From positions 1 to 16,413 of IMG/VR virus record IMGVR_UViG_3300014970_000032: 16,413 nt of DNA. One strand, given 5' to 3'. This document shows positions 1 to 7,812 of the stretch, piece by piece. Source of the DNA: a virus. Its lineage: Duplodnaviria; Heunggongvirae; Uroviricota; Caudoviricetes. The notes under the pieces were generated by a model, which saw only the letters and a list, made by a program, of their open reading frames with translations, was not told the origin of the DNA and searched no databases. How positions within the stretch are numbered: the stretch's first letter is position 1; every line of letters starts with the position of its first letter. The position numbers and the translations under genes are program-made.

Positions 1-263
1 ATTGCAAACGGCGGCGTCTGCTGTTGTGAAAGATAGGCGCGATGCAGCGCGAGTTTTGTTGCGGACCATGCTTCCAGTGGTTGCCCCGCGAACTGAATGC
101 TTCCCTTACCGCTGGTCATTCCGGCCATTCGCGCCAGTAAGGTACTCTTACCCGCGCCATTCGGCCCCACCAGGTGCAGGATCTCCCCAGCCCGAACCTC
201 GCCAGAAAGCGGCCCCAGGCGGGTAGATTCCGCAACATCTTGTAACTGCATCACAATAGACAT
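1..263 (-). CDS. btuD: Vitamin B12 ABC transporter ATP-binding protein BtuD, N-terminal part (gene continues past window start)
   Basis: Minus-strand translation from the ATG at revcomp 261-263 reads [41 protein letters not shown]..., with Walker [10 protein letters not shown], matching BtuD. The start overlaps the btuE stop (TAATG). Not in the ORF track because it runs off the window edge. Confidence 0.88.
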
Positions 264-814
264 TATTTTGCCAACGCCAGTTTAATGCTTTCCATCACAA
301 TGGGATCTTCCGGCGTCATATCCGGGGAAAAACGCTGGATGACTTTTCCGTCCCTGCCAACCAGGAATTTTTCAAAATTCCATAAAATATCATCCGGGTA
401 CAGCGGTGCACGGCCTTTGCTGACCATACGGGCATAGAATCCGCTCTCTTCCGGCGCGACTGCGGTCGGCGCTGCGGCAATCAATTTTTGATACAGCGGA
501 TGGCGTCCTTCGCCATTAACTTCAATCTTACTGAACATCGGGAACGTCACCCCCCATGTGGTGGTACAGTAAGTTTTAATCTCTTCATCGCTGCCCGGTT
601 CTTGTTCCAGAAACTGGTTGCACGGGAATCCCAGCACCATAAAACCTCGATCGACCCAGGCTTTCTGAATATTCTCCAACTGCTCATATTGCGGCGTTAA
701 GCCACACTTTGAGGCGACATTGACAATCAACAGCACATTACCAGCGTACTTCTCCAGCGTGGTCACTTCACCGTCGATATCTTTCACTACGGTCGTCAGA
801 ATGGAATCTTGCAT
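263..814 (-). CDS. btuE: Glutathione peroxidase-family protein BtuE
   Basis: 183-aa [20 protein letters not shown]...[16 protein letters not shown]...FPCNQF, with the peroxidase active-site region VASKCG and FPCNQF; sits between btuC and btuD as in the btuCED operon. Confidence 0.93.
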
Positions 815-876
815 CGTTTCTCCTGGGTGTGGTCAGTAAAAATCTTAGCTTTTAATCATAGACCGTCTTTTTGCGG

Positions 877-1857
877 CTAACGTCTTGCTTTTAACAATAA
901 CCAGATAAACACCGGCGCACCCAACGTTGCGGTGACCACGCCAATAGGCAGCTCTGCGGCAGCTAATGCCAGGCGCGCTACAATATCGGCCAGCAGCAAT
1001 GCGCTCGCCCCTGCCAGCGCGCAGCCGGGAAGTAATACGCGATGATCGGTTAAACCACACAACCGGAGAATATGGGGGATCACCAGACCAATAAAGCCGA
1101 TAGCACCCGCCAGCGCCACACTGACGCCAACCATCCAGCCGGTCGCTGCCACCAGCACATTGCGCCAGAACCACAGGGGTAAACCCAGTTGCCGCGCCGA
1201 GATCTCGCCAAGTGCTAACATATTCATCGGCCTGGACTGACAACAGATCCACAACAACACGGGGATCAATGCCAGCATCAGCCAGCTTTGCCGCCAGTCT
1301 ACGCCGCCAAAACCGCCCATCATCCAGTACATCAGCTGACGTAAATCAACAGAGGTGGAAAAGTAGATAGCCCACGTCATTAGTGCGCTACAGATAATCC
1401 CTAATGCAACGCCAGCCAGCAATAACCGACTGGTCGAAAGATGACGACGGGCGAAACGTAAGAGTATTAAAGTGATGATAAGCGCGCCAGCAATCGCACA
1501 CAGCCCTAGCGCCCAGTTGGGGAGTTGCCCTTGCCCAAGCAATACCGCGGCGATAAGCCCCACGCCTGCGCCGTTAGAGACGCCAAGTAGTCCAGGTTCT
1601 GCCAGAGGATTTTCAAACAACGCCTGCATTACAGCGCCGGATATAGCCAGCGCCGCACCAACCAGCAATACAGCCAGCGTACGTGGCAGGCGAATTTGCC
1701 AGACGAACAGTTCGCCACGAGGAGTAAACCAGTCACCTGGCGAGATCCATTGTTCACCGGCGCAAAGGCTTAAGAGAAGCGCCAGCAGCATCAAAACTGA
1801 CAGGCATAATAACCAGCGAATATTTTGTCGCTGTTGTTGGCGGGCAAGTGTCAGCAT
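877..1857 (-). CDS. btuC: Vitamin B12 ABC transporter permease BtuC
   Basis: 326-aa hydrophobic multi-TM ORF starting [28 protein letters not shown]..., recognised as BtuC; canonical ATG at revcomp 1855-1857. Confidence 0.94.
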
Positions 1858-1915
1858 GGTATCCGTTCTGCTGAAGTGTCATGGCGTTGATTTTACGGTG
1901 ACTCTTCGACAGTGA

Positions 1916-1940
1916 AAAGAAAAAAGGCCGCAGAGCGGCC
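1916..1940. repeat. Left copy of 25-bp direct repeat (aaagaaaaaaggccgcagagcggcc), putative attL core; duplicate of the ihfA terminator hairpin
   Basis: Identical 25-mer at 13984..14008. Flanking sequence differs on the inner side (island) and is core-like on the outer side (btuC upstream). Contains the GGCCGC-agag-CGGCC stem-loop. Confidence 0.7.
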
Positions 1941-2046
1941 ATAAACACAAACAAAAATCAATAAGTTAGATAATTATCAAAGACTTACAGACACACAAAA
2001 ACACAGCCAACCACAACAAATAACAGGGATGTGGTCACTTTGTGGA

Positions 2047-2442
2047 TCATTCGCTCCCCTCTTTTTCCTTATTTCGTTGAACGCCAATTGCGACACACGT
2101 ACTAAGCAAATCTTTACATTTCTCTACATCTTCAGACTTACGCAATTTGATGCTTTTTACAGACTGCGGGCTACTGTCCGTAGCACGATACATCGTTATT
2201 TCAATATCATTTCGGTCTAAGAGTCCCATAATGGCTTTTGCAACCTCCACACCCTTCTTCGCGAAATCAAAGAACAGAGCAAGTTTATATGGATTTTCGA
2301 CGGAAAAAACTTCAATTTTGCTAAAACCAACATCGTGTAGAGAAAAATATTGCTCAACCTCATCTCGAAGTTCTGGATCGCATACAATGTCTATTCTCCA
2401 GTACTGACCTAAATGCAAATCGCTATTAACTGTTTTTTCCAC
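2047..2442 (-). CDS. Hypothetical protein immediately downstream of the integrase (cargo at the attL-proximal end)
   Basis: Track ORF 2047..2463 begins at a TTG. A strong SD (AAGGAGG, revcomp of about 2448-2454) precedes an in-frame GTG at 2440-2442, which I take as the likelier start (about 131 aa). The ORF overlaps the int stop, suggesting co-transcription. No recognisable motif. Confidence 0.45.
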   Translation of the reverse strand: MEKTVNSDLHLGQYWRIDIVCDPELRDEVEQYFSLHDVGFSKIEVFSVENPYKLALFFDFAKKGVEVAKAIMGLLDRNDIEITMYRATDSSPQSVKSIKLRKSEDVEKCKDLLSTCVAIGVQRNKEKEGSE

Positions 2443-2452
2443 AACATCCTCC

Positions 2453-3427
2453 TTACCCAGCAATAGGATTAAATCTCACCGCATCCTGCAAGTAATCCGG
2501 CGCAAGATGGGCATAAATCATCGTTGTCTGAATCTTTGCGTGCCCCAGAATTTTCTGGAGCGTCAGAATATTGCCGCCGTTCATCATGAAATGACTGGCG
2601 AAGGTGTGGCGCAGCGCATGAACAGCCTGGCCGTCAGGAACATCAGGTGCGACCGTTTTGATGACATCGCGAACCAATGGATAATCCAGCGTCGGAAACA
2701 CCAGTTTCCCGCCCCGTTTTTTGATCTTTTCAAACAGGCTTTCAGAAATAGGAACGGTACGGTTTTTGCTGTTCTTCGTTTTTGAAAAAGTGATTCGACA
2801 ATGAAGAACACGGCGCTGCTCCAGTGCCGCTACCTCGCCCCATCGCGCCCCGGTCGACAGAAGGATTTCGACAGCCAGCCGTTCATCGGGATTTTCAGCC
2901 AGTGCATCCAGCAACTGAACACATTCAGACTTACTCAGATATCCCATTTCGCGCTCGTTAACCTTCATTCCTTTAAGGCCTTGAACGGGGTTATCGTTAA
3001 GAAAATGGCCGGATGAGATGAGTGCGGTAAACATCGCGCTTAACGCCCCAATCTCTCGATTAATGGTGCTGGGCTGTATCCCCTGCTCTATCCTGGACAC
3101 ACGTAGCTCGGTGAGCATCGTTGTATTAAGTTTATGCACACACGGGTCATCCATTGCCTCACTCAAGCGCAGCAATTTAAGGCGCGTGTTATGCCCTGAC
3201 TTCATTAGCTGGCCGTGGTATTTCCACCACAAGTCAATAAGCACCGACAGCGGACGGCGATCAATGGAGTTTCCTTTCCACTCATTGTTATGCTGTTGCG
3301 CCAGCACCCACCGCTCATATAAAACTGCATCCGATTTCGTTTTAAATTTTTTGCGAATGCGTTTGCCTTTACGCCCCTCAGGGCGCATGTCAAGAAGATA
3401 CCCTCCCGGAATTGATTTTATGCTCAT
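2453..3427 (-). CDS. int: Tyrosine site-specific integrase, P2 Int-like
   Basis: Track ORF 2453..3577; I place the start at the internal ATG (revcomp 3425-3427) giving MSIKSIPGGYLLDMRPEGRKGKRIRKKFKTKSDAVLYERW..., which parallels the P2 Int N-terminus. C-terminal catalytic region ...LSTGARWGE...HALRHTFASHFMMNGGNILTLQKILGHAKIQTTMIYAHL has the R..HxxR..Y tyrosine recombinase signature. Confidence 0.9.
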   Translation of the reverse strand: MSIKSIPGGYLLDMRPEGRKGKRIRKKFKTKSDAVLYERWVLAQQHNNEWKGNSIDRRPLSVLIDLWWKYHGQLMKSGHNTRLKLLRLSEAMDDPCVHKLNTTMLTELRVSRIEQGIQPSTINREIGALSAMFTALISSGHFLNDNPVQGLKGMKVNEREMGYLSKSECVQLLDALAENPDERLAVEILLSTGARWGEVAALEQRRVLHCRITFSKTKNSKNRTVPISESLFEKIKKRGGKLVFPTLDYPLVRDVIKTVAPDVPDGQAVHALRHTFASHFMMNGGNILTLQKILGHAKIQTTMIYAHLAPDYLQDAVRFNPIAG

Positions 3428-3476
3428 TCGTGAAACCCCAGCGTTACAAGACCACCATGCTCCCAGCGTTCCATGA

Positions 3477-3785
3477 TTAACCGGGCTGTGTACCAGTCTT
3501 GCGGGATTTTTGAGAAGACGATGTGTTTTCTGGCCCATCAGGGGAGAGAGAGGGACTGATCTGCCCAGCAGCCTCATTTGTTTTTCCCGTCATAAGCCAA
3601 TTCATGTACTTAAAAAAGCGAGGGTGATTAACAATCTTGATAAGCACTTCGCCCCCTATGTTTTCAATCCGCCCCGTTTCATAACGACGCAAAGTGCCGA
3701 TAGGCACATCAATCAGGCCGCAAAATTCTTCGCGCGTTAAATCCTCTGATTCACGAATCACTCTAATTTTTTCACCGATAAGCAT
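3477..3785 (-). CDS. Immunity repressor, P2 C-like helix-turn-helix protein
   Basis: 102-aa ORF MLIGEKIRVIRESEDLTREEFCGLIDVPIGTLRRYETGR... with an N-terminal HTH; same strand as int and directly upstream of it, as for C in P2; ATG at revcomp 3783-3785. Confidence 0.8.
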   Translation of the reverse strand: MLIGEKIRVIRESEDLTREEFCGLIDVPIGTLRRYETGRIENIGGEVLIKIVNHPRFFKYMNWLMTGKTNEAAGQISPSLSPDGPENTSSSQKSRKTGTQPG

Positions 3786-3850
3786 TGACAGTGTTCCTAT
3801 AAGTACACTAAGCTTGCGCGCAAGGTGTACTTATAAGTACACCAAGTCAC
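3785..3850. promoter_or_regulatory. Divergent promoter/operator region between the repressor and rightward genes
   Basis: Perfect 18-bp palindrome gtgtacttataagtacac at 3825..3842, and a related half-degenerate copy gtgttcctataagtacac at 3791..3808 (34 bp centre to centre). Consensus -35 TTGACA at 3785..3790 on the + strand, overlapping the repressor start codon. Confidence 0.5.
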
Positions 3851-3881
3851 AAACAACCACAGATAGCGCAGGTTATCACAC

Positions 3882-4163
3882 ATGGCAAAAGTCCTGAACA
3901 CACACGAACAGGCAGACTTTGAGCGTTTAGCAGCGTTCTATCCCTACCGCGATGAGCATGGGTTACCGTGCTTTCTGACATGCTGCGCGCCATCCGTGAC
4001 ACAGAGCACGCACAAAGAATCAATGAAACCACTGAACGCGCACGCCGCAAGGCTACTTTGCTCCAAAAGAGAGGCAAACAGCACTTTAGTAATCAAAATG
4101 ATGATGAGAAAAAACAATTACAAAGTTGGATATGCCTTTTCCATCATGAGGGATGAGATGTGA
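3882..4163 (+). CDS. Hypothetical small ORF in the cox-equivalent position (possibly degenerate)
   Basis: 93-aa ORF located where P2 has cox, but no recognisable Cox similarity. A second overlapping ORF in another frame (3968..4156) suggests frame decay. Confidence 0.25.
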   Translation: MAKVLNTHEQADFERLAAFYPYRDEHGLPCFLTCCAPSVTQSTHKESMKPLNAHAARLLCSKREANSTLVIKMMMRKNNYKVGYAFSIMRDEM

Positions 4164-4178
4164 ATCGCTAACCGAATA

Positions 4179-4208
4179 TTGTGTTGAATAGAATGCAATT
4201 GATATAAT
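4179..4208 (+). promoter_or_regulatory. Candidate sigma70 promoter for the methyltransferase-ATPase operon
   Basis: Consensus -10 TATAAT at 4203..4208 with a weak -35 (ttgtgt, 4179..4184, 18-bp spacer). An inverted repeat ttgcata-N3-atgcaa at about 4239..4254 lies between it and the MTase start. Confidence 0.35.
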
Positions 4209-4341
4209 TCCCCTTAATTCATTGAAAACTGGATTTTTTGCATAACTATGCAAATATCTATGGACGGCGACGATGTTTTTTATCGGGAAAACTCAAGTGC
4301 CATGTTAAGATTATGTTTATTTTTTACTGAGAAAATCGTGG

Positions 4342-5187
4342 ATGACAAAGCCTTCTCATTTTAGAACCCCTCTTCGTTATCCGGGAGGTAAGGCAAAATT
4401 CTTGCCACATATTGAACAAATACTCCGCAACAATGATCTCATTGGTGGATGTTATGCTGAACCTTATGCAGGTGGAGCCGGTGTAGCATTAGGTTTGCTC
4501 CTTAACGGTCTTGTTGAAAATATCTTCATAAATGATATTGATCCTGCCCTTTATTCTTTTTGGTTTGCAGTGGTTAATCATAACGATCTGTTATGTGAAA
4601 TGATTGATGAAGTTCCTGTGACTATTGAAAATTGGCATACTCAAAAGGAGATACTCCTAAACAATGATAAATATAGTATGCTTGAAGTCGCATTATCAAC
4701 TTTCTTTTTAAATAGAACAAACCGTTCAGGAATACTTAAGGCTGGCGTTATTGGAGGGAAAGAACAAAAAGGACCATGGAAGTTAGATGCAAGATTCAAC
4801 AAAAAAGAGTTAATTAAAAGGATTGAACTAATTGGTGCATATAAGGAGAAAATTTACGTATCGAATTTTGATGCTGTAGATTTTCTGCTACACCAAAAAG
4901 CATTGCTACCCCAAAATAGTCTAATATATCTTGATCCACCTTATTATGTTAAAGGAGCAGAGTTATATAGAAATTTTTATAAACATGATGATCATGTAAA
5001 AATCGCTAATACACTACGGGAAATTCAACTACCTTGGGTTGTGTCTTATGACAATGTGCCTGAAATAAAAAGCATATATCATGAATTCAACATGACTGAT
5101 TATACGCTTAATTATACTGCACAAGATAAGAAAAAAGGTCTAGAAATTATCATTTATAATCATGGTATAAAAATCCCTGACATTTAA
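4342..5187 (+). CDS. N6-adenine DNA methyltransferase, Dam-like (D12 class)
   Basis: 281 aa. N-terminal RYPGGKAKFLP...EPYAGGAGVAL (SAM-binding FxGxG-type motif) and catalytic DPPY tetrapeptide (IYLDPPYY), the arrangement typical of Dam-family enzymes. Markedly AT-rich. Confidence 0.85.
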   Translation: MTKPSHFRTPLRYPGGKAKFLPHIEQILRNNDLIGGCYAEPYAGGAGVALGLLLNGLVENIFINDIDPALYSFWFAVVNHNDLLCEMIDEVPVTIENWHTQKEILLNNDKYSMLEVALSTFFLNRTNRSGILKAGVIGGKEQKGPWKLDARFNKKELIKRIELIGAYKEKIYVSNFDAVDFLLHQKALLPQNSLIYLDPPYYVKGAELYRNFYKHDDHVKIANTLREIQLPWVVSYDNVPEIKSIYHEFNMTDYTLNYTAQDKKKGLEIIIYNHGIKIPDI

Positions 5188-5204
5188 ATTTAAGGATGAT
5201 ATAG

Positions 5205-6902
5205 ATGATTAAAGAAATTAGTTTTAAAAAATTTAAGAAACTGATAGATATTGACTTTTCATTCAATGAAGACATCAATATAATATCAGGAACCAATGGG
5301 ACATGTAAGACAACATTGCTTCATTTAATTAGCAATGGTTTCCAAATGCCACCATCTCGATCACAAAATTATTCAAATAGTAATTGTGTTAGAGTTATAA
5401 AATCTATAAACAAAATAGCCAACCCCAAAATGGAAGCAATTGTTAGGGAATCAAAAAATTACACCGATCCGGCAGAGGGAACAAAAGGTGTGTTATTTTC
5501 CATTAACTATTTGGATCATAGCACACTAGACTTCAGAAAGCACAACTCAAAAAATCCAGACGAAGCGCAACGGTATGCTATCAAACCAGTATACCCACGC
5601 GGAAAAGAAAAACAATCACTTCCAGCTAAACCAGTTTTATATCTTGGATTATCGCGACTATTCCCGATTGGTGAAACTAAAGACGACGCCCTTACAAAAA
5701 TTCCGTTAAACCTACCAGAAGAGTATGTTGGTTATATATCGAAAATATATAATGAACTTTTGGGCATTAATATTATAAATATAGAATCAAACAATATCGG
5801 AGATTTTAAAGCTGGCCCATTATTTGATACCGATAACCCAGCAATTGATTCTAATACCATATCATCCGGGGAAGACAATATATTCATTATAATCAAGGCA
5901 TTAGTTAGCCTTAGGTATTATTTTGAATCACTTATTCAATCCACTGATCAAAAAGAAAGCATTCTGTTAATAGATGAATTTGATGCCACTTTACATCCTT
6001 CTTTACAGATAAGATTATTAGATAAAATTTATCAATACGCAAAAGATTATAAGATTCAAGTATTTTTCACAACGCACAGTCTGACATTGCTAGAATATGC
6101 TTTTCATAAAAAATACCATGTTGTCTATCTAATTAACAATATTACAAAGGCTCTGCTTTTAGATAATCCTGACATATTAAAAATAACAATGTATCTGAAA
6201 ACACAAACAAAGGATGAGATATACACAAGGAACAAGATACCAGTTTTCACGGAAGATGAAGAAGCTCGCTTTTTATTTAATGAAATACTTGGTTATTGGA
6301 TAAGCAAATATCCAAATTTTGCTATAGTTAGTAATTCATTTCACTTAATTGATTGTTTCATTGGTGCAGACAATTTAAAAACTATTTTTAATGATTCTCA
6401 TCTTAAGGAAACCTCGTTAAAATCAATTTGTATTCTTGATGGAGATCACAGCCCTGAGGATCAGAGAGGAATTATATCACTGCCGGGAGAAAAAGCTCCA
6501 GAACAATTGATATTTGAGCATTGTGAGCACCTTTATAATACCGACGACTCTTCCTTCTGGGAAAATCAGGATATAATTAACAATGGTTTTTCGAAAGAGT
6601 TATACTTACTCAAGATACGTCCTCAACTACAATCAATTGAAACTGAAATTCAGAAAAGAAAAGACAACCATGAGTCTACATCCGGTTTAAGAAGAAAATT
6701 AAATAAGAAAATATTCAATCAGCATATTGAATTCTTTAGAATGATTACAAGAAACTGGTTAGACAAACCAGAAAATCAGAAATCTCTCCAGTATTTTTAC
6801 AATGGATTACGATCCTTATTCTACCGGGTTACACCAACAAACGGCATTGACAGAAAAATTTGGGATTTTGACTATAACAAAATCATTAAAGAGGATAAAT
6901 AA
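5205..6902 (+). CDS. ABC-type (SMC/OLD-like) ATPase with putative C-terminal TOPRIM-like nuclease domain
   Basis: 565 aa. Walker A GTNGTCKTT (aa ~29-37), signature-like ISSGE, Walker B ILLIDEFDATLHP, H-loop FFTTHS. C-terminal acidic motifs PVFTEDEEA and ICILDGDHSPED (DxD) fit a TOPRIM-type metal site. SD AAGGA 8 nt before the ATG, 17 bp after the MTase stop (operon). Confidence 0.8.
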   Translation: MIKEISFKKFKKLIDIDFSFNEDINIISGTNGTCKTTLLHLISNGFQMPPSRSQNYSNSNCVRVIKSINKIANPKMEAIVRESKNYTDPAEGTKGVLFSINYLDHSTLDFRKHNSKNPDEAQRYAIKPVYPRGKEKQSLPAKPVLYLGLSRLFPIGETKDDALTKIPLNLPEEYVGYISKIYNELLGINIINIESNNIGDFKAGPLFDTDNPAIDSNTISSGEDNIFIIIKALVSLRYYFESLIQSTDQKESILLIDEFDATLHPSLQIRLLDKIYQYAKDYKIQVFFTTHSLTLLEYAFHKKYHVVYLINNITKALLLDNPDILKITMYLKTQTKDEIYTRNKIPVFTEDEEARFLFNEILGYWISKYPNFAIVSNSFHLIDCFIGADNLKTIFNDSHLKETSLKSICILDGDHSPEDQRGIISLPGEKAPEQLIFEHCEHLYNTDDSSFWENQDIINNGFSKELYLLKIRPQLQSIETEIQKRKDNHESTSGLRRKLNKKIFNQHIEFFRMITRNWLDKPENQKSLQYFYNGLRSLFYRVTPTNGIDRKIWDFDYNKIIKEDK

Positions 6903-6980
6903 TGTACTCTAATAGAATATAAACATCAAAGCTATATTCTTTACACATATCAAGAGTAAAAAATAATTTAACTTTATACA

Positions 6981-7018
6981 TAACGACCTCTTTTACAAAT
7001 AAGTAGAAAAGGTCGTTA
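6981..7018 (+). terminator. Imperfect stem-loop downstream of the ATPase gene (possible terminator)
   Basis: taacgacctcttttac / gtagaaaaggtcgtta inverted repeat about 80 bp after the stop codon; no clean U-tract. Confidence 0.3.
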
Positions 7019-7141
7019 TAACTCTCATCTCCATAGCATGTAATTTTCTTTGCATATTTTCACATAACAGTCAGGGATGTATTTATAAGCAACGTCGTAT
7101 ACATAGGCTCAATTTTTCTATAAATAAACACTCCGTTCGGT

Positions 7142-7170
7142 TTGCACAATAGTGCACAAATTTGCACAAT
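7142..7170. repeat. Three direct TGCACAA repeats at exact 10-bp spacing
   Basis: TGCACAA at 7143-7149, 7153-7159 and 7163-7169, followed by a T7 run; helical-turn phasing suggests a protein-binding array. Confidence 0.5.
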
Positions 7171-7593
7171 TTTTTTGAACGACTTTTTGCCCTTCCGGCC
7201 CGCATGGCGGCTGGATCCGTCAAGGATCCGTGCGTGCACAAAAAAACGCGTTTTTTCTGCGCGCAGGTGACGGGGGAACAGCCCGCGTTTCAGGGGGTAA
7301 ATAGCATTCCCTTAACGATGTCGCAGCGACACGACAGAATGGCCGTATTTCTCACGCTGAGCGTGAAAAATACGTGAGGGATTCTGGTTTGATGGGGTGA
7401 AAGGTAAGGCCGTCAAAATCGCACTGAGGCGGCGAGAACATGCAGTCAGCGCAGTGGGATTGCGTAAGAGTCTGACCGTCGATGATGGCAATAAGCAGGA
7501 AAGCGTCGTGAAATTATCTGACTGATACAGGAGCTGGAGAGTCGGGGCATAAATTTTTTATGCCCCGGCGAAGCAGCAGACAAGCGAAGCGCG

Positions 7594-7812
7594 TCAGGAT
7601 GTGGGCTGGGTACCCGCATCCGCTTTACTGACAGCGTCGCGGGCGCGCTCAAATGAACGCGCCTGACGCTCGAGATTTTTGATCGCCCCCTGCGTTCGCT
7701 GGATGGAGTCACCAAACTGCCCCATCAGGCGGCGGGCGTTTTCGGCAGGCCGGGTCAGCCTGTCAACGGCGCTGAAAGCGACCCGGATGTCAAGAGTCTT
7801 CATTATCTGCAT
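7594..7812 (-). pseudogene. Tail tape-measure protein (T-like) N-terminal fragment
   Basis: Short ORF ...MKTLDIRVAFSAVDRLTRPAENARRLMGQF... begins overlapping the end of E' as T does in P2-like tail modules, but stops after about 70 codons. Confidence 0.45.

What the first reader, a model, noticed from the sequence alone, without database searches (positions are those of the whole stretch)
4164..6902. AT-rich two-gene cargo operon: Dam-like adenine methyltransferase followed by an OLD-like ABC ATPase with putative TOPRIM nuclease domain - candidate methylation-coupled defence system
Seen in sequence: a 281-aa protein with D12-class MTase motifs (RYPGGK, EPYAGGAGV, DPPY) is followed 17 bp later by a 565-aa protein with a full ABC ATPase motif set (GTNGTCKTT, ISSGE, LLIDEFD, TTHS) and a C-terminal region with acidic motifs (VFTEDEE, ILDGDH) compatible with a TOPRIM fold. 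Both genes are far more AT-rich than the surrounding prophage and core genes, so they were acquired as a unit. Established knowledge: P2 carries old (ABC ATPase plus TOPRIM nuclease) and tin at a variable locus, and P2-like prophages are known to swap diverse anti-phage systems at such loci. Inference: the pair sits where the replication and old/tin region would be in a P2-like prophage. The MTase-first order resembles an R-M operon, where modification is expressed before a toxic nuclease. I know of no named system that pairs a Dam-like MTase with an OLD/GajA/PARIS-type ATPase-nuclease, so this may be an undescribed methylation-guarded variant; equally the MTase could be an orphan anti-restriction Dam next to an independent OLD-like gene.
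Basis: partly seen in the sequence, partly recalled or inferred. Interest (0 to 1): 0.82.

Follow-up and report, generated by a model that had tools for sequence, protein, structure and literature searches.

The report
Methylase paired with OLD-like ATPase nuclease
A decayed P2-like prophage in E. coli carries a two-gene cassette, a DNA adenine methylase plus an ATP-driven nuclease-type protein, that travels as a unit across many bacterial phyla and is most likely an uncharacterised relative of the known PD-lambda-5 anti-phage system.

Summary
Window 4342-5187 encodes a 281-aa D12-class adenine methylase. After a 17-nt spacer, 5205-6902 encodes a 565-aa ABC ATPase with a divergent TOPRIM-like C-terminal domain. 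Both genes are AT-rich cargo at the classical P2 gpA-portal hotspot of a heavily deleted prophage.

- **Partly known already.** The methylase belongs to the PD-lambda-5_B family (E 9e-122). PD-lambda-5 is a validated "RM+Abi" system whose other gene is a ParB/HEPN protein, not an ATPase.
- **The genes are coupled.** In 66 of 68 evaluable loci from more than ten phyla and one archaeon, an ortholog of the ATPase lies next to this methylase family. Gene order varies, and ATPase-first is the commoner order.
- **The methylase swaps partners.** In 80 prophage loci it pairs with an OLD-like ATPase (about 40 loci) or with PD-lambda-5_A (34 loci). Four loci carry all three genes.

My best reading is methylation-gated, restriction-like or abortive defence. 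No name for the pair was found in PADLOC 2.0 or the searchable literature. I rate it a new variant of a known kind, interest about 0.6.

The parts
3882..4163 (+). Chimeric 93-aa ORF. It joins the 5' part of a cox-region gene to the 3' end of the replication endonuclease gene gpA across a ~6.1-kb deletion, and marks the upstream edge of the cargo locus.
   Evidence: Window 1-3973 aligns to L002 1001-4973 and window 3962-7611 to L002 11098-14747, with a 12-bp overlap. L002 annotation shows gpA at 8467-11292.
4164..4341 (+). Upstream non-coding region. It holds a candidate extended -10 promoter element, TGATATAAT, at 4200-4208.
   Evidence: Read from the sequence. The consensus scan gave no -35/-10 pair here and no excess of promoter-like sites over shuffles, so this is an inference.
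4342..5187 (+). 281-aa alpha-class (D12) N6-adenine DNA methyltransferase of the PD-lambda-5_B family. SAM motif EPYAGGAG is at residues 40-47 and catalytic DPPY at residues 198-201 (nt 4933-4944).
   Evidence: Pfam PF02086 E 1.3e-20. PADLOC PD-Lambda-5_B E 8.7e-122 and MTase_II PDLC03358 E 9e-108. Both motifs are invariant in 32 homologs from both partner contexts.
5188..5204 (+). 17-nt spacer with Shine-Dalgarno AAGGA (5192-5196), 8 nt before the ATPase start codon. Consistent with one operon.
5205..6902 (+). 565-aa ABC ATPase fused to a TOPRIM-like domain and a C-terminal helical domain (whole gene).
   Evidence: Pfam AAA_15 and AAA_21. PADLOC HEC-04 1.3e-16 and ATPase-Toprim_I-B 8.9e-16. 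AF2 model with pLDDT 82. Foldseek top hits are the retron Eco8 OLD effector, GajA and Thermus OLD.
5205..6140 (+). ABC ATPase head (residues ~1-312). Walker A is G29-T37 with K35, signature S220-G222-E223, Walker B D257-E258, H-loop H291. It includes a family-specific, highly conserved insert at residues ~45-215 (nt 5337-5849), which is the candidate sensor or recognition region.
   Evidence: Invariant columns in 48 homologs and 70 of 70 orthologs. The insert has no PADLOC match and is modelled with low confidence.
6231..6494 (+). Divergent TOPRIM-like nuclease core (residues ~343-430). A beta strand ends in E350-D351, and a later strand is followed by D412-G413-D414.
6495..6899 (+). C-terminal all-helical domain (residues ~431-565) of unknown role. 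Invariant F451, W452, G494, R497, K501, W518 and W553.
   Evidence: pLDDT above 90. No Pfam or PADLOC match.
6980..7019 (.). Imperfect 17-nt inverted repeat, 78 nt after the ATPase stop codon. No T-run follows it and its function is unknown.
7152..7177 (+). Terminator-like hairpin GTGCACAAATTTGCAC followed by a T-run. Possible end of the cargo transcript.
7611..7613 (.). Second deletion junction. The 3' edge of the portal-gene region is joined to the tail-gene region, so the head, packaging and lysis genes and some of the tail genes are absent.

Best explanation
The two genes form one mobile defence-type module that works through DNA methylation, in a restriction-modification-like way.

The methylase (PD-lambda-5_B family, alpha-class m6A enzyme) marks the DNA of the cell and of its own prophage. 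The partner is an OLD-type protein. Its ABC ATPase head, together with a family-specific conserved insert, acts as the sensor. The fused TOPRIM domain, with an E...DxD metal site, is the nuclease.

I propose that the ATPase-nuclease is held off by the methyl mark and is switched on by DNA that lacks it, such as incoming phage or plasmid DNA. It then cuts either that DNA (restriction-like) or, as shown recently for P2 Old and PARIS, cellular tRNA (abortive infection).

Shown here: the domain make-up, the conservation of catalytic residues in both proteins, near-obligate linkage across phyla, exchange of the same methylase between this ATPase and the PD-lambda-5_A effector, location in known defence hotspots of mobile elements, and retention in a prophage that has lost most other genes.

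Inferred: that the module defends against phage, that methylation gates the nuclease, and what the nuclease cuts.
For: 1. Linkage. Of 79 loci encoding ATPase orthologs (36-60% identity) in one-genome-per-species contigs, 68 could be evaluated. 66 of these have a PD-lambda-5_B-type MTase within 2 kb, and 63 have it directly adjacent. Taxa span Bacillota, four classes of Pseudomonadota, Actinomycetota, Fusobacteriota, Spirochaetota, Deferribacterota, Planctomycetota, Mycoplasmatota, Bacteroidota and one archaeon.
2. All 15 E. coli genomes that carry the locus have both genes. A 71%-identical pair sits in a different element at smpB/ssrA.
3. ATPase and MTase divergence are correlated across 63 loci, with Mantel r 0.73 and p 0.001.
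4. The MTase SAM-binding and DPPY motifs are invariant. The ATPase Walker A/B, signature and H-loop motifs and the TOPRIM acidic residues are invariant in 70 of 70 orthologs.
5. The same MTase family serves PD-lambda-5_A in a validated system. That system needed an mrr-deleted host for cloning, which implies real in vivo methylation (PMC9519451).
6. In 80 prophage loci the MTase almost always has a large NTPase/nuclease partner.
7. Asymmetric decay. The ATPase is frameshifted in 4 loci, while the MTase is intact in every locus where it could be judged. This is expected if the nuclease is dangerous without the methylase.
8. Relatives with this architecture are proven defence proteins, and mutating their ATPase and TOPRIM sites abolishes defence (HEC-04). 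P2 Old senses DNA structures and cleaves tRNA.
Against: - No experiment on this pair was found, and none could be run.
- The recognition sequence of the MTase is unknown.
- Two Rhizobiaceae loci have an intact ATPase ortholog with no MTase within 4 kb. The ATPase is therefore not always lethal alone, unless a host methylase covers for it.
- The decay asymmetry (4 to 0) is not statistically decisive. Allowing for gene length, p is about 0.2.
- MTases up to 75% identical serve unrelated effectors. That is awkward if each effector must itself read the same methylated sequence.
- TOPRIM support is moderate. No Pfam family matched. Foldseek on the isolated domain gave nothing significant. Profile comparisons with PDB sequences and with P2 Old gave nothing.
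- PD-lambda-5 protects best against T-even phages, which is not typical of classical restriction.
Confidence: 0.5

Rival explanations
1. Guardian model, like PrrC or PARIS. The methylase is not there mainly to mark DNA. It is the guarded partner or bait. The ATPase-TOPRIM is held inactive in a complex with it, and is released when a phage anti-restriction protein (a DNA mimic such as Ocr or ArdA, or an Stp-like peptide) or another phage factor hits the methylase. Abortive infection follows.
For: - Vassallo et al. describe PD-lambda-5 as a compacted 'RM+Abi' system.
- OLD-type ABC ATPase + TOPRIM modules are repeatedly recruited as back-up effectors next to R-M-like and BREX systems, and PARIS is triggered by Ocr (PMC12839542; PMC12707154).
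- Four loci carry the ATPase in addition to a complete PD-lambda-5 A+B pair.
- MTases up to 75% identical serve unrelated effectors. This is easier to explain if the effectors read the protein rather than the DNA mark.
Against: - 63 of 66 linked loci have only the MTase and the ATPase, so there is no restriction component to guard.
- Strict conservation of the MTase catalytic motifs and the Mrr sensitivity of PD-lambda-5 clones point to real methylation being selected.
- No evidence of a physical complex was obtained.
Confidence: 0.2
2. Danger-signal model, like Metis. The methylase marks host DNA so that, when a phage degrades the chromosome, methylated mononucleotides (m6dAMP) build up. The nucleotide-binding ATPase head senses them and switches on the TOPRIM nuclease. 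Carrying its own methylase would make the module independent of the host's Dam status.
For: - Metis and a PUA-Cal-HAD system sense m6dAMP released from degraded methylated DNA and depend on methylases (bioRxiv 10.1101/2025.11.05.686725; 10.64898/2026.01.15.699771).
- PD-lambda-5 protects most strongly against T-even phages, which degrade host DNA (my own knowledge).
- GajA, a related ATPase-TOPRIM, is nucleotide-regulated (PMC8136825, abstract).
- The model explains why unrelated effectors can share one MTase.
- It also fits the two ATPase-only loci in Rhizobiaceae. Those hosts carry the essential m6A methylase CcrM, which is my own knowledge and was not tested here.
Against: - Metis uses endogenous methylases and unrelated sensor proteins.
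- E. coli already has Dam, so an extra methylase would be redundant in this host.
- No m6A-nucleotide-binding domain, such as PUA or YTH, was detected in the ATPase.
- The idea is purely by analogy.
Confidence: 0.12
3. Selfish addiction module. The pair behaves mainly as a post-segregational killing cassette that stabilises the prophage or island, because loss of the methylase exposes the genome to the nuclease. Phage defence would be secondary or absent.
For: - The pair survives in a prophage remnant that has lost its replication, head and lysis genes and some of its tail genes.
- The MTase is always intact while the ATPase sometimes decays.
- Such behaviour is established for type II R-M systems (my own knowledge).
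Against: - The pair sits in hotspots where validated defence systems sit (PMC9519451, PMC9122126).
- The sister system PD-lambda-5 and the architectural relative HEC-04 both protect against phage.
- Addiction and defence are not mutually exclusive.
Confidence: 0.08
4. Two independent genes: an orphan anti-restriction or epigenetic Dam-like methylase that happens to lie beside a stand-alone OLD-like defence gene.
For: - Stand-alone class 1 OLD genes and HEC-04/IbfA work alone.
- Phage methylases of this family have been described as orphans (PMC6536676).
- Two ATPase orthologs lack a neighbouring MTase.
Against: - 66 of 68 loci are linked across more than ten phyla, with varying order and orientation.
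- A 17-nt spacer with its own Shine-Dalgarno separates the genes.
- Divergence of the two genes is correlated.
- The 'orphan' Paracoccus phage methylase in fact has an overlapping PD-lambda-5_A partner, E 2e-147.
Confidence: 0.03

Closest known systems
PD-lambda-5 (Vassallo et al. 2022, Nat Microbiol; PADLOC and DefenseFinder 'PD-Lambda-5')
   Same: - The methylase is the same family: PD-Lambda-5_B E 8.7e-122 over 275 of 281 residues.
- Both are two-gene cassettes on prophages and integrative elements.
- The partner is an NTPase/nuclease-type protein of about 450-600 aa.
- Some loci carry PD-lambda-5_A, the methylase and the ATPase together.
   Different: - The partner gene is unrelated. PD-lambda-5_A is annotated ParB/HEPN, and no PD-Lambda-5_A model is among the 25 best PADLOC matches of the window ATPase. 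The C-terminal fragment and the insert region, scanned alone, match none either.
- In PD-lambda-5 the A gene is usually upstream of the methylase. Here the ATPase is downstream.
HEC-04 / IbfA (ABC ATPase fused to TOPRIM; Payne et al. preprint 2024; R64 and pUA1135 ibfA)
   Same: - Single polypeptide with an ABC ATPase head plus a C-terminal TOPRIM.
- Best PADLOC match for the whole protein (1.3e-16), and the only match for the C-terminal domain alone (4.1e-7).
- The E...DxD positions line up with residues shown to be needed for HEC-04 defence.
   Different: - The match is weak (58 bits) and covers residues 249-444 only.
- HEC-04/IbfA act as single genes with no methylase.
- The window protein has its own conserved insert and its own C-terminal helical domain.
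- tblastn found no IncI-plasmid ibfA at E 1e-5.
OLD family nucleases (P2 Old, Thermus/Burkholderia OLD, GajA of Gabija, retron Eco8 effector)
   Same: - ATPase-then-TOPRIM architecture.
- Foldseek ranks the Eco8 effector, GajA and Thermus OLD first for the full-length model (E 1e-10 to 7e-9).
- Same P2 hotspot as old.
   Different: - The profile comparison with P2 Old aligns only 46 columns around Walker B and the H-loop. The C-terminal profile does not align at all.
- No Pfam OLD-type Toprim match.
- No helicase partner (class 2), retron (class 3) or separate AriB (PARIS).
- The partner here is a methylase, which the accessible OLD reviews do not list as a class.
Restriction-modification systems, especially the ATP-dependent types I and III and type II with a separate M gene
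   Same: - An active-looking m6A methylase tightly linked to an NTPase-nuclease.
- The MTase also matches PADLOC 'MTase_II' PDLC03358 at 9e-108.
- Mobile, AT-rich, and sporadically distributed.
   Different: - The nuclease is TOPRIM-type and the motor is an ABC ATPase. It is not PD-(D/E)xK with an SF2 helicase.
- No specificity subunit.
- No REase model appears among the listed matches.
- Cleavage of unmethylated DNA has not been shown.
PARIS (AriA/AriB) and PrrC/RloC guardian systems
   Same: - ABC ATPase sensor coupled to a TOPRIM (PARIS) or other nuclease.
- AriA and AriAB models match the ATPase head.
- Shared theme of association with modification systems.
   Different: - No DUF4435 match.
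- The protein is fused and of a different subfamily.
- PARIS needs no methylase.
- PrrC is embedded in a complete type I R-M locus.

Membership tests
D12-class (alpha) N6-adenine DNA methyltransferase | Pfam PF02086 match above the gathering score | tested here: met
   74.6 bits against a cut-off of 22, E 1.3e-20, covering residues 13-253.
D12-class (alpha) N6-adenine DNA methyltransferase | SAM-binding FxGxG-type motif near the N-terminus and catalytic DPPY after it | tested here: met
   EPYAGGAG at 40-47 and DPPY at 198-201. Both are invariant in 32 homologs.
Dam proper (GATC-specific, TIGR00571) | Score above the NCBIfam cut-off for the Dam subfamily | tested here: not met
   70.4 bits against a cut-off of 114.85. 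The recognition sequence is unknown. PD-lambda-5 clones needed an mrr-deleted host. Dam methylation is not known to trigger Mrr (my own knowledge), so this hints at a non-Dam methylation pattern.
PD-lambda-5 system | Component B: methyltransferase matching the PD-Lambda-5_B models | tested here: met
   PDLC04018 E 8.7e-122 over 6-280. PDLC04019 E 3.4e-67.
PD-lambda-5 system | Component A: ParB/HEPN protein matching the PD-Lambda-5_A models, adjacent to B | tested here: not met
   No PD-Lambda-5_A model is among the 25 best PADLOC matches of the 565-aa protein (78 weaker matches, all above E 2e-11, were not listed). Its C-terminal half and its insert region, scanned alone, match none. True A proteins score E 1e-254. 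No other ORF lies between gpA and the portal remnant.
ABC ATPase (OLD/SMC-like clade) | Walker A, signature (LSGG-like), Walker B, D-loop and H-loop in order | tested here: met
   K35, S220-G222-E223, D257-E258, D260 and H291 are invariant. Pfam AAA_15, AAA_21 and SMC_N match. Foldseek hits include Rad50, PtuA and GajA.
OLD family nuclease | C-terminal TOPRIM domain with a conserved glutamate and a DxD metal-binding motif | tested here: inconclusive
Against: no Pfam Toprim family; Foldseek on the domain alone not significant; no hit in PDB sequences.
OLD family nuclease | Detectable sequence homology to P2 Old across both domains | tested here: not met
   hhalign aligns only 46 columns at Walker B/H-loop, probability 78%. 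The C-terminal profile scores probability 0.4%.
OLD family nuclease | Metal-dependent nuclease activity regulated by ATP | not testable with these tools
   Needs purified protein.
HEC-04 / IbfA | Full-length match to the HEC-04 model; functions as a single gene | tested here: not met
   Only residues 249-444 align to model positions 230-408 of 494, at 58 bits. The gene is linked to a methylase in 66 of 68 loci.
PARIS (AriA + AriB or fused AriAB) | AAA_15/AAA_21 ATPase plus a DUF4435 (PF14491) TOPRIM | tested here: not met
   The ATPase part is met. DUF4435 is not detected even at E 10 on the C-terminal half, nor in 15 family members.
Gabija (GajA + GajB) | OLD-type GajA adjacent to a UvrD-like helicase GajB | tested here: not met
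   No helicase ORF is adjacent. GajA models hit only the ATPase core, at 42-52 bits.
MADS (methylation-associated defence system) | MAD3 ATPase above the NCBIfam cut-off, within a multi-gene mad locus | tested here: not met
   NF047739 scores 15.6 bits against a cut-off of 420. The locus has only two genes.
Restriction-modification system (functional definition) | The nuclease cleaves DNA that lacks the cognate methylation, and the methylase protects | not testable with these tools
   Only indirect support: near-obligate linkage and asymmetric decay.
P2-like prophage hotspot cargo | Located between the replication endonuclease gpA and the portal gene gpQ of a P2-like prophage | tested here: met
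   Intact prophages in AR_0013 and MS20654. The window keeps the gpA 3' end and the portal-side junction. P2 itself carries tin and old there.

The most novel reading that the evidence does not exclude
The pair represents an unrecognised class of modification-dependent immunity. One conserved family of m6A methylases acts as a portable self-marking hub for interchangeable NTPase-nuclease effectors: ParB/HEPN in PD-lambda-5, and at least two clades of ABC ATPase-TOPRIM proteins here.

The ATPase-TOPRIM version would be either the first TOPRIM-based, ABC-ATPase-driven restriction enzyme, or a methylation-gated abortive tRNase that turns absence of a methyl mark on DNA into translation arrest.
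Probability: 0.35. Interest if true: 0.8.

Novelty: new variant of a known kind. Interest (0 to 1): 0.6.

Why it matters
- **Scale.** The ATPase family comprises about 120 clusters at 50% identity at E 1e-30 or better. It spans most major bacterial phyla and one archaeon, yet it is annotated only as 'AAA family ATPase' beside a 'DNA adenine methylase'. Defence-annotation tools that need both PD-lambda-5 genes would miss it, or would report an orphan or type II methylase.
- **OLD biology.** If methylation gates an OLD-type nuclease, that would link two well-studied areas, restriction-modification and OLD/PARIS/Gabija-type sensing. It would also give a simple, genetically tractable handle on the open question of how OLD-type ATPases tell self from non-self.
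- **Orphan methylases.** Methylases of this family in prophages have been called orphan. At least one such case, in Paracoccus phage Pkon1, is in fact paired with a PD-lambda-5_A gene.
- **Prophage decay.** Both cargo loci survive in a prophage stripped of most other genes. This is a small, clear example of defence or addiction cargo outliving its vehicle.

Tried and rejected
- Pfam scan of the C-terminal 268 aa at E up to 10, and of 15 family members at E up to 1. No Toprim, DUF4435 or OLD-type family appeared.
- Foldseek of the isolated C-terminal model against the PDB. Nothing was significant: best E 0.67, with AriB, retron Eco2 and GajA only among non-significant hits.
- Profile of the C-terminal domain against PDB sequences. 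Only spurious globin hits.
- hhalign of the full and C-terminal profiles against P2 Old. Only the Walker B/H-loop region aligned. I therefore do not file the protein as a P2 Old homolog.
- PADLOC scan of the conserved insert (residues 45-215). No match, so no hint of what it recognises.
- Search for the methylase's specificity. The nearest solved structure (7m6b) matches at only 67 bits. The Paracoccus phage paper reports no motif for the homolog. REBASE is not available here.
- Literature searches for a named methylase + OLD-like pair found none. Krishnan et al. [quoted passage not shown] It may already describe this gene neighbourhood.
- Rejected families: Dam proper (below cut-off), MADS, PARIS and Gabija (membership tests failed), and the independent-genes reading (co-occurrence).
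- Promoter scan. No excess of sigma-70-like sites over shuffles in this AT-rich region, so the promoter call rests on a single extended -10 match.

Full report
**1. What is in the window**

The window is E. coli chromosome. It runs from btuE/btuC (263-1857, minus strand) to ihfA/pheT (14026-16366, minus strand), with a P2-like prophage integrated between them.

The prophage is a remnant:
- Window 1-3973 is collinear with a complete prophage in strain MS20654.
- The sequence then jumps about 6.1 kb, across a 12-bp overlap, to the last ~200 bases of the replication endonuclease gene gpA.
- At 7611/7613 it jumps again, from the portal-gene edge into the tail genes.
- A further deletion lies near 9205.

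What survives is the integrase, the repressor region, some tail genes, ogr, and both AT-rich cargo loci.

**2.

- ORF 4342-5187 encodes 281 aa and ORF 5205-6902 encodes 565 aa.
- They are separated by 17 nt that contain an AAGGA ribosome-binding site.
- Pfam assigns the first protein to the D12 class of N6-adenine methyltransferases (E 1.3e-20). It assigns the second to AAA_15/AAA_21-type ABC ATPases.
- GC falls to 0.29-0.37 across the pair, against about 0.5 outside it.
- In 15 of 5,426 complete E. coli genomes the same 2.7 kb occurs at 98-99.7% identity. Both genes are always present and always chromosomal.
- In intact prophages the pair lies between gpA and the portal gene. P2 itself carries tin and old at that position.

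**3. The methylase is not unaffiliated**

Against PADLOC-DB it matches PD-Lambda-5_B at E 8.7e-122 over nearly its whole length, and a type II MTase model at 9e-108.

PD-lambda-5 was selected experimentally from ECOR7 by Vassallo et al. (PMC9519451):
- It is listed there as 'ParB/HEPN, methyltransferase'.
- It protected against nearly all of ten phages, most strongly the T-even phages.
- It had to be cloned in an mrr-deleted host.

Against the NCBI Dam model the window methylase scores below the cut-off, so it is not Dam proper. Its target sequence is unknown.

**4. The ATPase partner**

No PD-Lambda-5_A model appears among the 25 best PADLOC matches of the second protein. Genuine A proteins score E 1e-254. 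The best matches are HEC-04 (1.3e-16), PtuA, the retron type I-B 'ATPase-Toprim' model (8.9e-16), AriA/AriAB and GajA.

An alignment of 48 homologs (45-83% identity) shows these residues to be invariant:
- Walker A K35
- signature S220-G222-E223
- Walker B D257-E258
- H-loop H291
- E350, D351, E353
- D412-G413-D414

The same pattern holds in 70 of 70 orthologs from fetched loci.

The AlphaFold2 model (pLDDT 82) is ranked by Foldseek closest to the OLD-type effector of retron Eco8 (1e-10), GajA (1e-9) and Thermus OLD (7e-9). Those alignments span more than 500 columns.

**5. How good is the TOPRIM call**

Evidence for:
- The C-terminal 268 aa alone hit the HEC-04 model at E 4e-7, over model positions 312-409.
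- HEC-04 is an ABC ATPase-TOPRIM fusion. Its Walker A mutant and its E319/D375/D377 mutant lose defence. E350 and D412/D414 fall at the corresponding places in the alignment.
- The model shows a strand ending in E350, a helix, a strand, a helix, and a strand followed by DGD.

Evidence against:
- Pfam finds no Toprim family, in this protein or in 15 relatives.
- Foldseek on the isolated domain finds nothing significant.
- Profile searches against PDB sequences and against P2 Old find nothing.

I regard the domain as a divergent TOPRIM with moderate confidence. I regard the protein as OLD-like in architecture, but not as a sequence relative of P2 Old.

Two regions have no match anywhere. One is a strongly conserved insert at residues ~45-215 inside the ATPase head. 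The other is a confident all-helical C-terminal domain.

**6. Are the two genes coupled**

A scan of one genome per species returned 79 loci encoding ATPase orthologs (36-60% identity, two more distant at 30%). They come from Bacillota, alpha-, beta-, gamma- and epsilon-proteobacteria, Actinomycetota, Fusobacteriota, Spirochaetota, Deferribacterota, Planctomycetota, Mycoplasmatota, Flavobacterium and one methanogen MAG.

I searched the flanks with the window methylase:

| Arrangement | Loci |
|---|---|
| MTase directly downstream, same strand | 53 |
| MTase directly upstream, same strand | 6 |
| Convergent | 3 |
| Divergent | 1 |
| One gene between ATPase and MTase | 3 |
| No MTase within 4 kb | 2 |
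| Contig too short to judge | 11 |

So 66 of 68 evaluable loci have a methylase of this family within 2 kb.

- The Firmicute methylases also score as PD-Lambda-5_B, at E 1e-109 to 1e-113.
- The two exceptions are Rhizobiaceae loci inside a defence-type island with a HerA-like gene and AbiTii.
- Within 63 ortholog loci the divergence of the two proteins is correlated (Mantel r 0.73, p 0.001), and both average 46% identity.
- The ATPase is broken by frameshifts in four loci. The methylase is complete wherever the contig allows a judgement.
- A 71%-identical pair in E. coli sits in a different integrative element beside smpB.

The 'orphan methylase next to an independent gene' reading is therefore rejected.

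**7. The methylase as a shared hub**

Methylase homologs at ~60% identity in Pseudomonas and Pectobacterium are preceded by a bona fide PD-Lambda-5_A gene.

I then ran a methylase-centred scan of viral contigs, which gave 80 prophage loci:
- 34 have PD-Lambda-5_A.
- About 40 have an OLD-like ABC ATPase. Six of these are orthologs of the window protein. The rest belong to a more divergent clade of 530-620 aa, usually upstream of the methylase. That clade keeps the ABC motifs, and 31 of 35 members also keep E-D...DxD.
- Only six have no recognised partner, and several of those are cut by contig ends.

Methylases do not cluster by partner. Mean identity is 0.47 within a partner class and 0.43-0.45 between classes. 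The nearest non-identical neighbour has a different partner type in about a third of cases. Identity reaches 75% between an ATPase-linked and an A-linked methylase.

In the three 'spaced' loci the intervening gene is PD-Lambda-5_A itself (E 2e-269, 7e-32 and 8e-31). A fourth locus has A, the methylase and a divergent ATPase.

The methylase is thus a portable module. It has repeatedly exchanged NTPase-nuclease partners and sometimes serves two at once.

**8. Mechanism**

None of this shows what the pair does. I commit to a methylation-gated model at about 0.5 confidence:
- The methylase marks resident DNA.
- The ATPase head, with its private insert, senses DNA lacking the mark.
- The TOPRIM domain is the effector.

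The reasons are as follows:
- near-obligate linkage
- conserved catalysis in both proteins
- evidence of in vivo methylation from PD-lambda-5
- asymmetric decay of the two genes
- location in defence hotspots
- proven defence by architectural relatives

Whether the target is invading DNA or cellular tRNA is open. Recent work shows that P2 Old senses DNA structures but cleaves tRNA (bioRxiv 10.64898/2026.07.10.737580). PARIS AriB cleaves tRNA-Lys. GajA and the retron Eco8 effector cut DNA.

Rival models:
- **Guardian, like PrrC or PARIS (0.2).** The methylase is bait or partner. The three-gene loci and effector swapping favour it. The dominance of two-gene loci and strict conservation of the methylase active site count against it.
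- **Danger signal, like Metis (0.12).** The methylase ensures that chromosome degradation releases m6dAMP. This fits the T-even bias of PD-lambda-5 and the shared hub, but rests on analogy alone.
- **Addiction module (0.08).** This can coexist with defence.
- **Independent genes (0.03).**

**9. Novelty**

- PADLOC-DB 2.0 has no model specific to this ATPase and no system rule for the pair.
- Public annotation gives only generic names, on 759-889 contigs.
- Nine literature searches found no named methylase + OLD-like system.
- The accessible OLD-family paper and review list standalone, helicase-, retron- and PARIS-type classes only. Neither mentions a methylase-linked class.

One caveat remains. 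A later paper cites Krishnan et al. [quoted passage not shown] It may already have noted this neighbourhood computationally.

I therefore rate the finding as a new variant of a known kind: the PD-lambda-5 methylase module with an OLD-type ATPase-TOPRIM effector. It is widespread but experimentally untouched.

Noticed in passing
window 9876-12995 (+): A second AT-rich cargo gene (GC ~0.33) encodes a 1039-aa protein with a hydrophobic N-terminal ~200 aa. It lies between a gpD fragment and ogr, which is the second P2 hotspot (Z/fun locus). It has no Pfam, PADLOC or NCBIfam match, and RefSeq calls it 'MFS transporter' without domain support. The 184 homologs are all in Enterobacterales. They include a distant 1069-aa set (26-29% identity), many of whose members lie on ~80-95-kb contigs of E. 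coli and Salmonella; at least one is annotated as plasmid-borne. It is a candidate uncharacterised single-gene defence or cargo protein.
   Followed up: partly
window 3882-4163, 3962-3973, 7611-7613, ~9203-9207: The prophage is a multiply deleted remnant. The early and replication genes, the head and lysis genes and some of the tail genes are gone. ORF 3882-4163 is a cox-region::gpA-3' chimera formed across a 12-bp overlap. Both cargo loci are nevertheless intact.
   Followed up: yes
L050 4001-8527; L073 1877-6062; L090 4001-8162; L152 2716-6411: Three-gene loci in which an OLD-like ATPase-TOPRIM, a PD-lambda-5_A protein and the methylase occur together. Either the ATPase was added to a complete PD-lambda-5 system, or two effectors share one methylase.
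   Followed up: partly
e.g. L101 2177-3967, L109 2191-3918, L113 2112-3911, L117 2100-3968, L128 2154-3956: A second, divergent clade of 530-620-aa ABC ATPases lies usually upstream of the same methylase family in prophage contigs. It keeps the ABC motifs and mostly keeps the E-D...DxD signature. Three members (L117, L128, L129) align only to the ATPase head and may carry a different C-terminal domain.
   Followed up: partly
L176 1570-3739 (Paracoccus phage vB_PkoS_Pkon1, pkon1_p76/p75): The methylase pkon1_p75 is described as orphan in PMC6536676. It is overlapped by an upstream 439-aa gene that matches PD-Lambda-5_A at E 2e-147, so this phage carries a complete PD-lambda-5-type pair.
   Followed up: yes
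L052 and L053 (Rhizobium sp. 2MFCol3.1, Pseudorhizobium pelagicum): These are the only intact ATPase orthologs without a neighbouring methylase. In L052, the one examined, the gene sits between a HerA-like (DUF87) gene and an AbiTii-domain gene. I did not check whether a host methylase such as CcrM substitutes.
   Followed up: partly
window 6980-7019: A 17-nt imperfect inverted repeat (ATAACGACCTCTTTTAC / GTAGAAAAGGTCGTTAT, 6-nt loop) lies 78 nt downstream of the ATPase stop codon. No T-run follows it and its function is unknown.
   Followed up: no
L009-L011 5001-7560 (E. coli contigs): A 71%/~63%-identical version of the same pair sits just inside an integrase-bearing element at smpB/ssrA that also carries shufflon, PilS and TraD genes. 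The cassette therefore moves between unrelated mobile elements within E. coli.
   Followed up: partly
window ~13582-13722: By collinearity with L003, a Hok/Gef-family toxin gene should lie between ogr and ihfA, at the prophage-chromosome edge. I did not examine it in the window.
   Followed up: no
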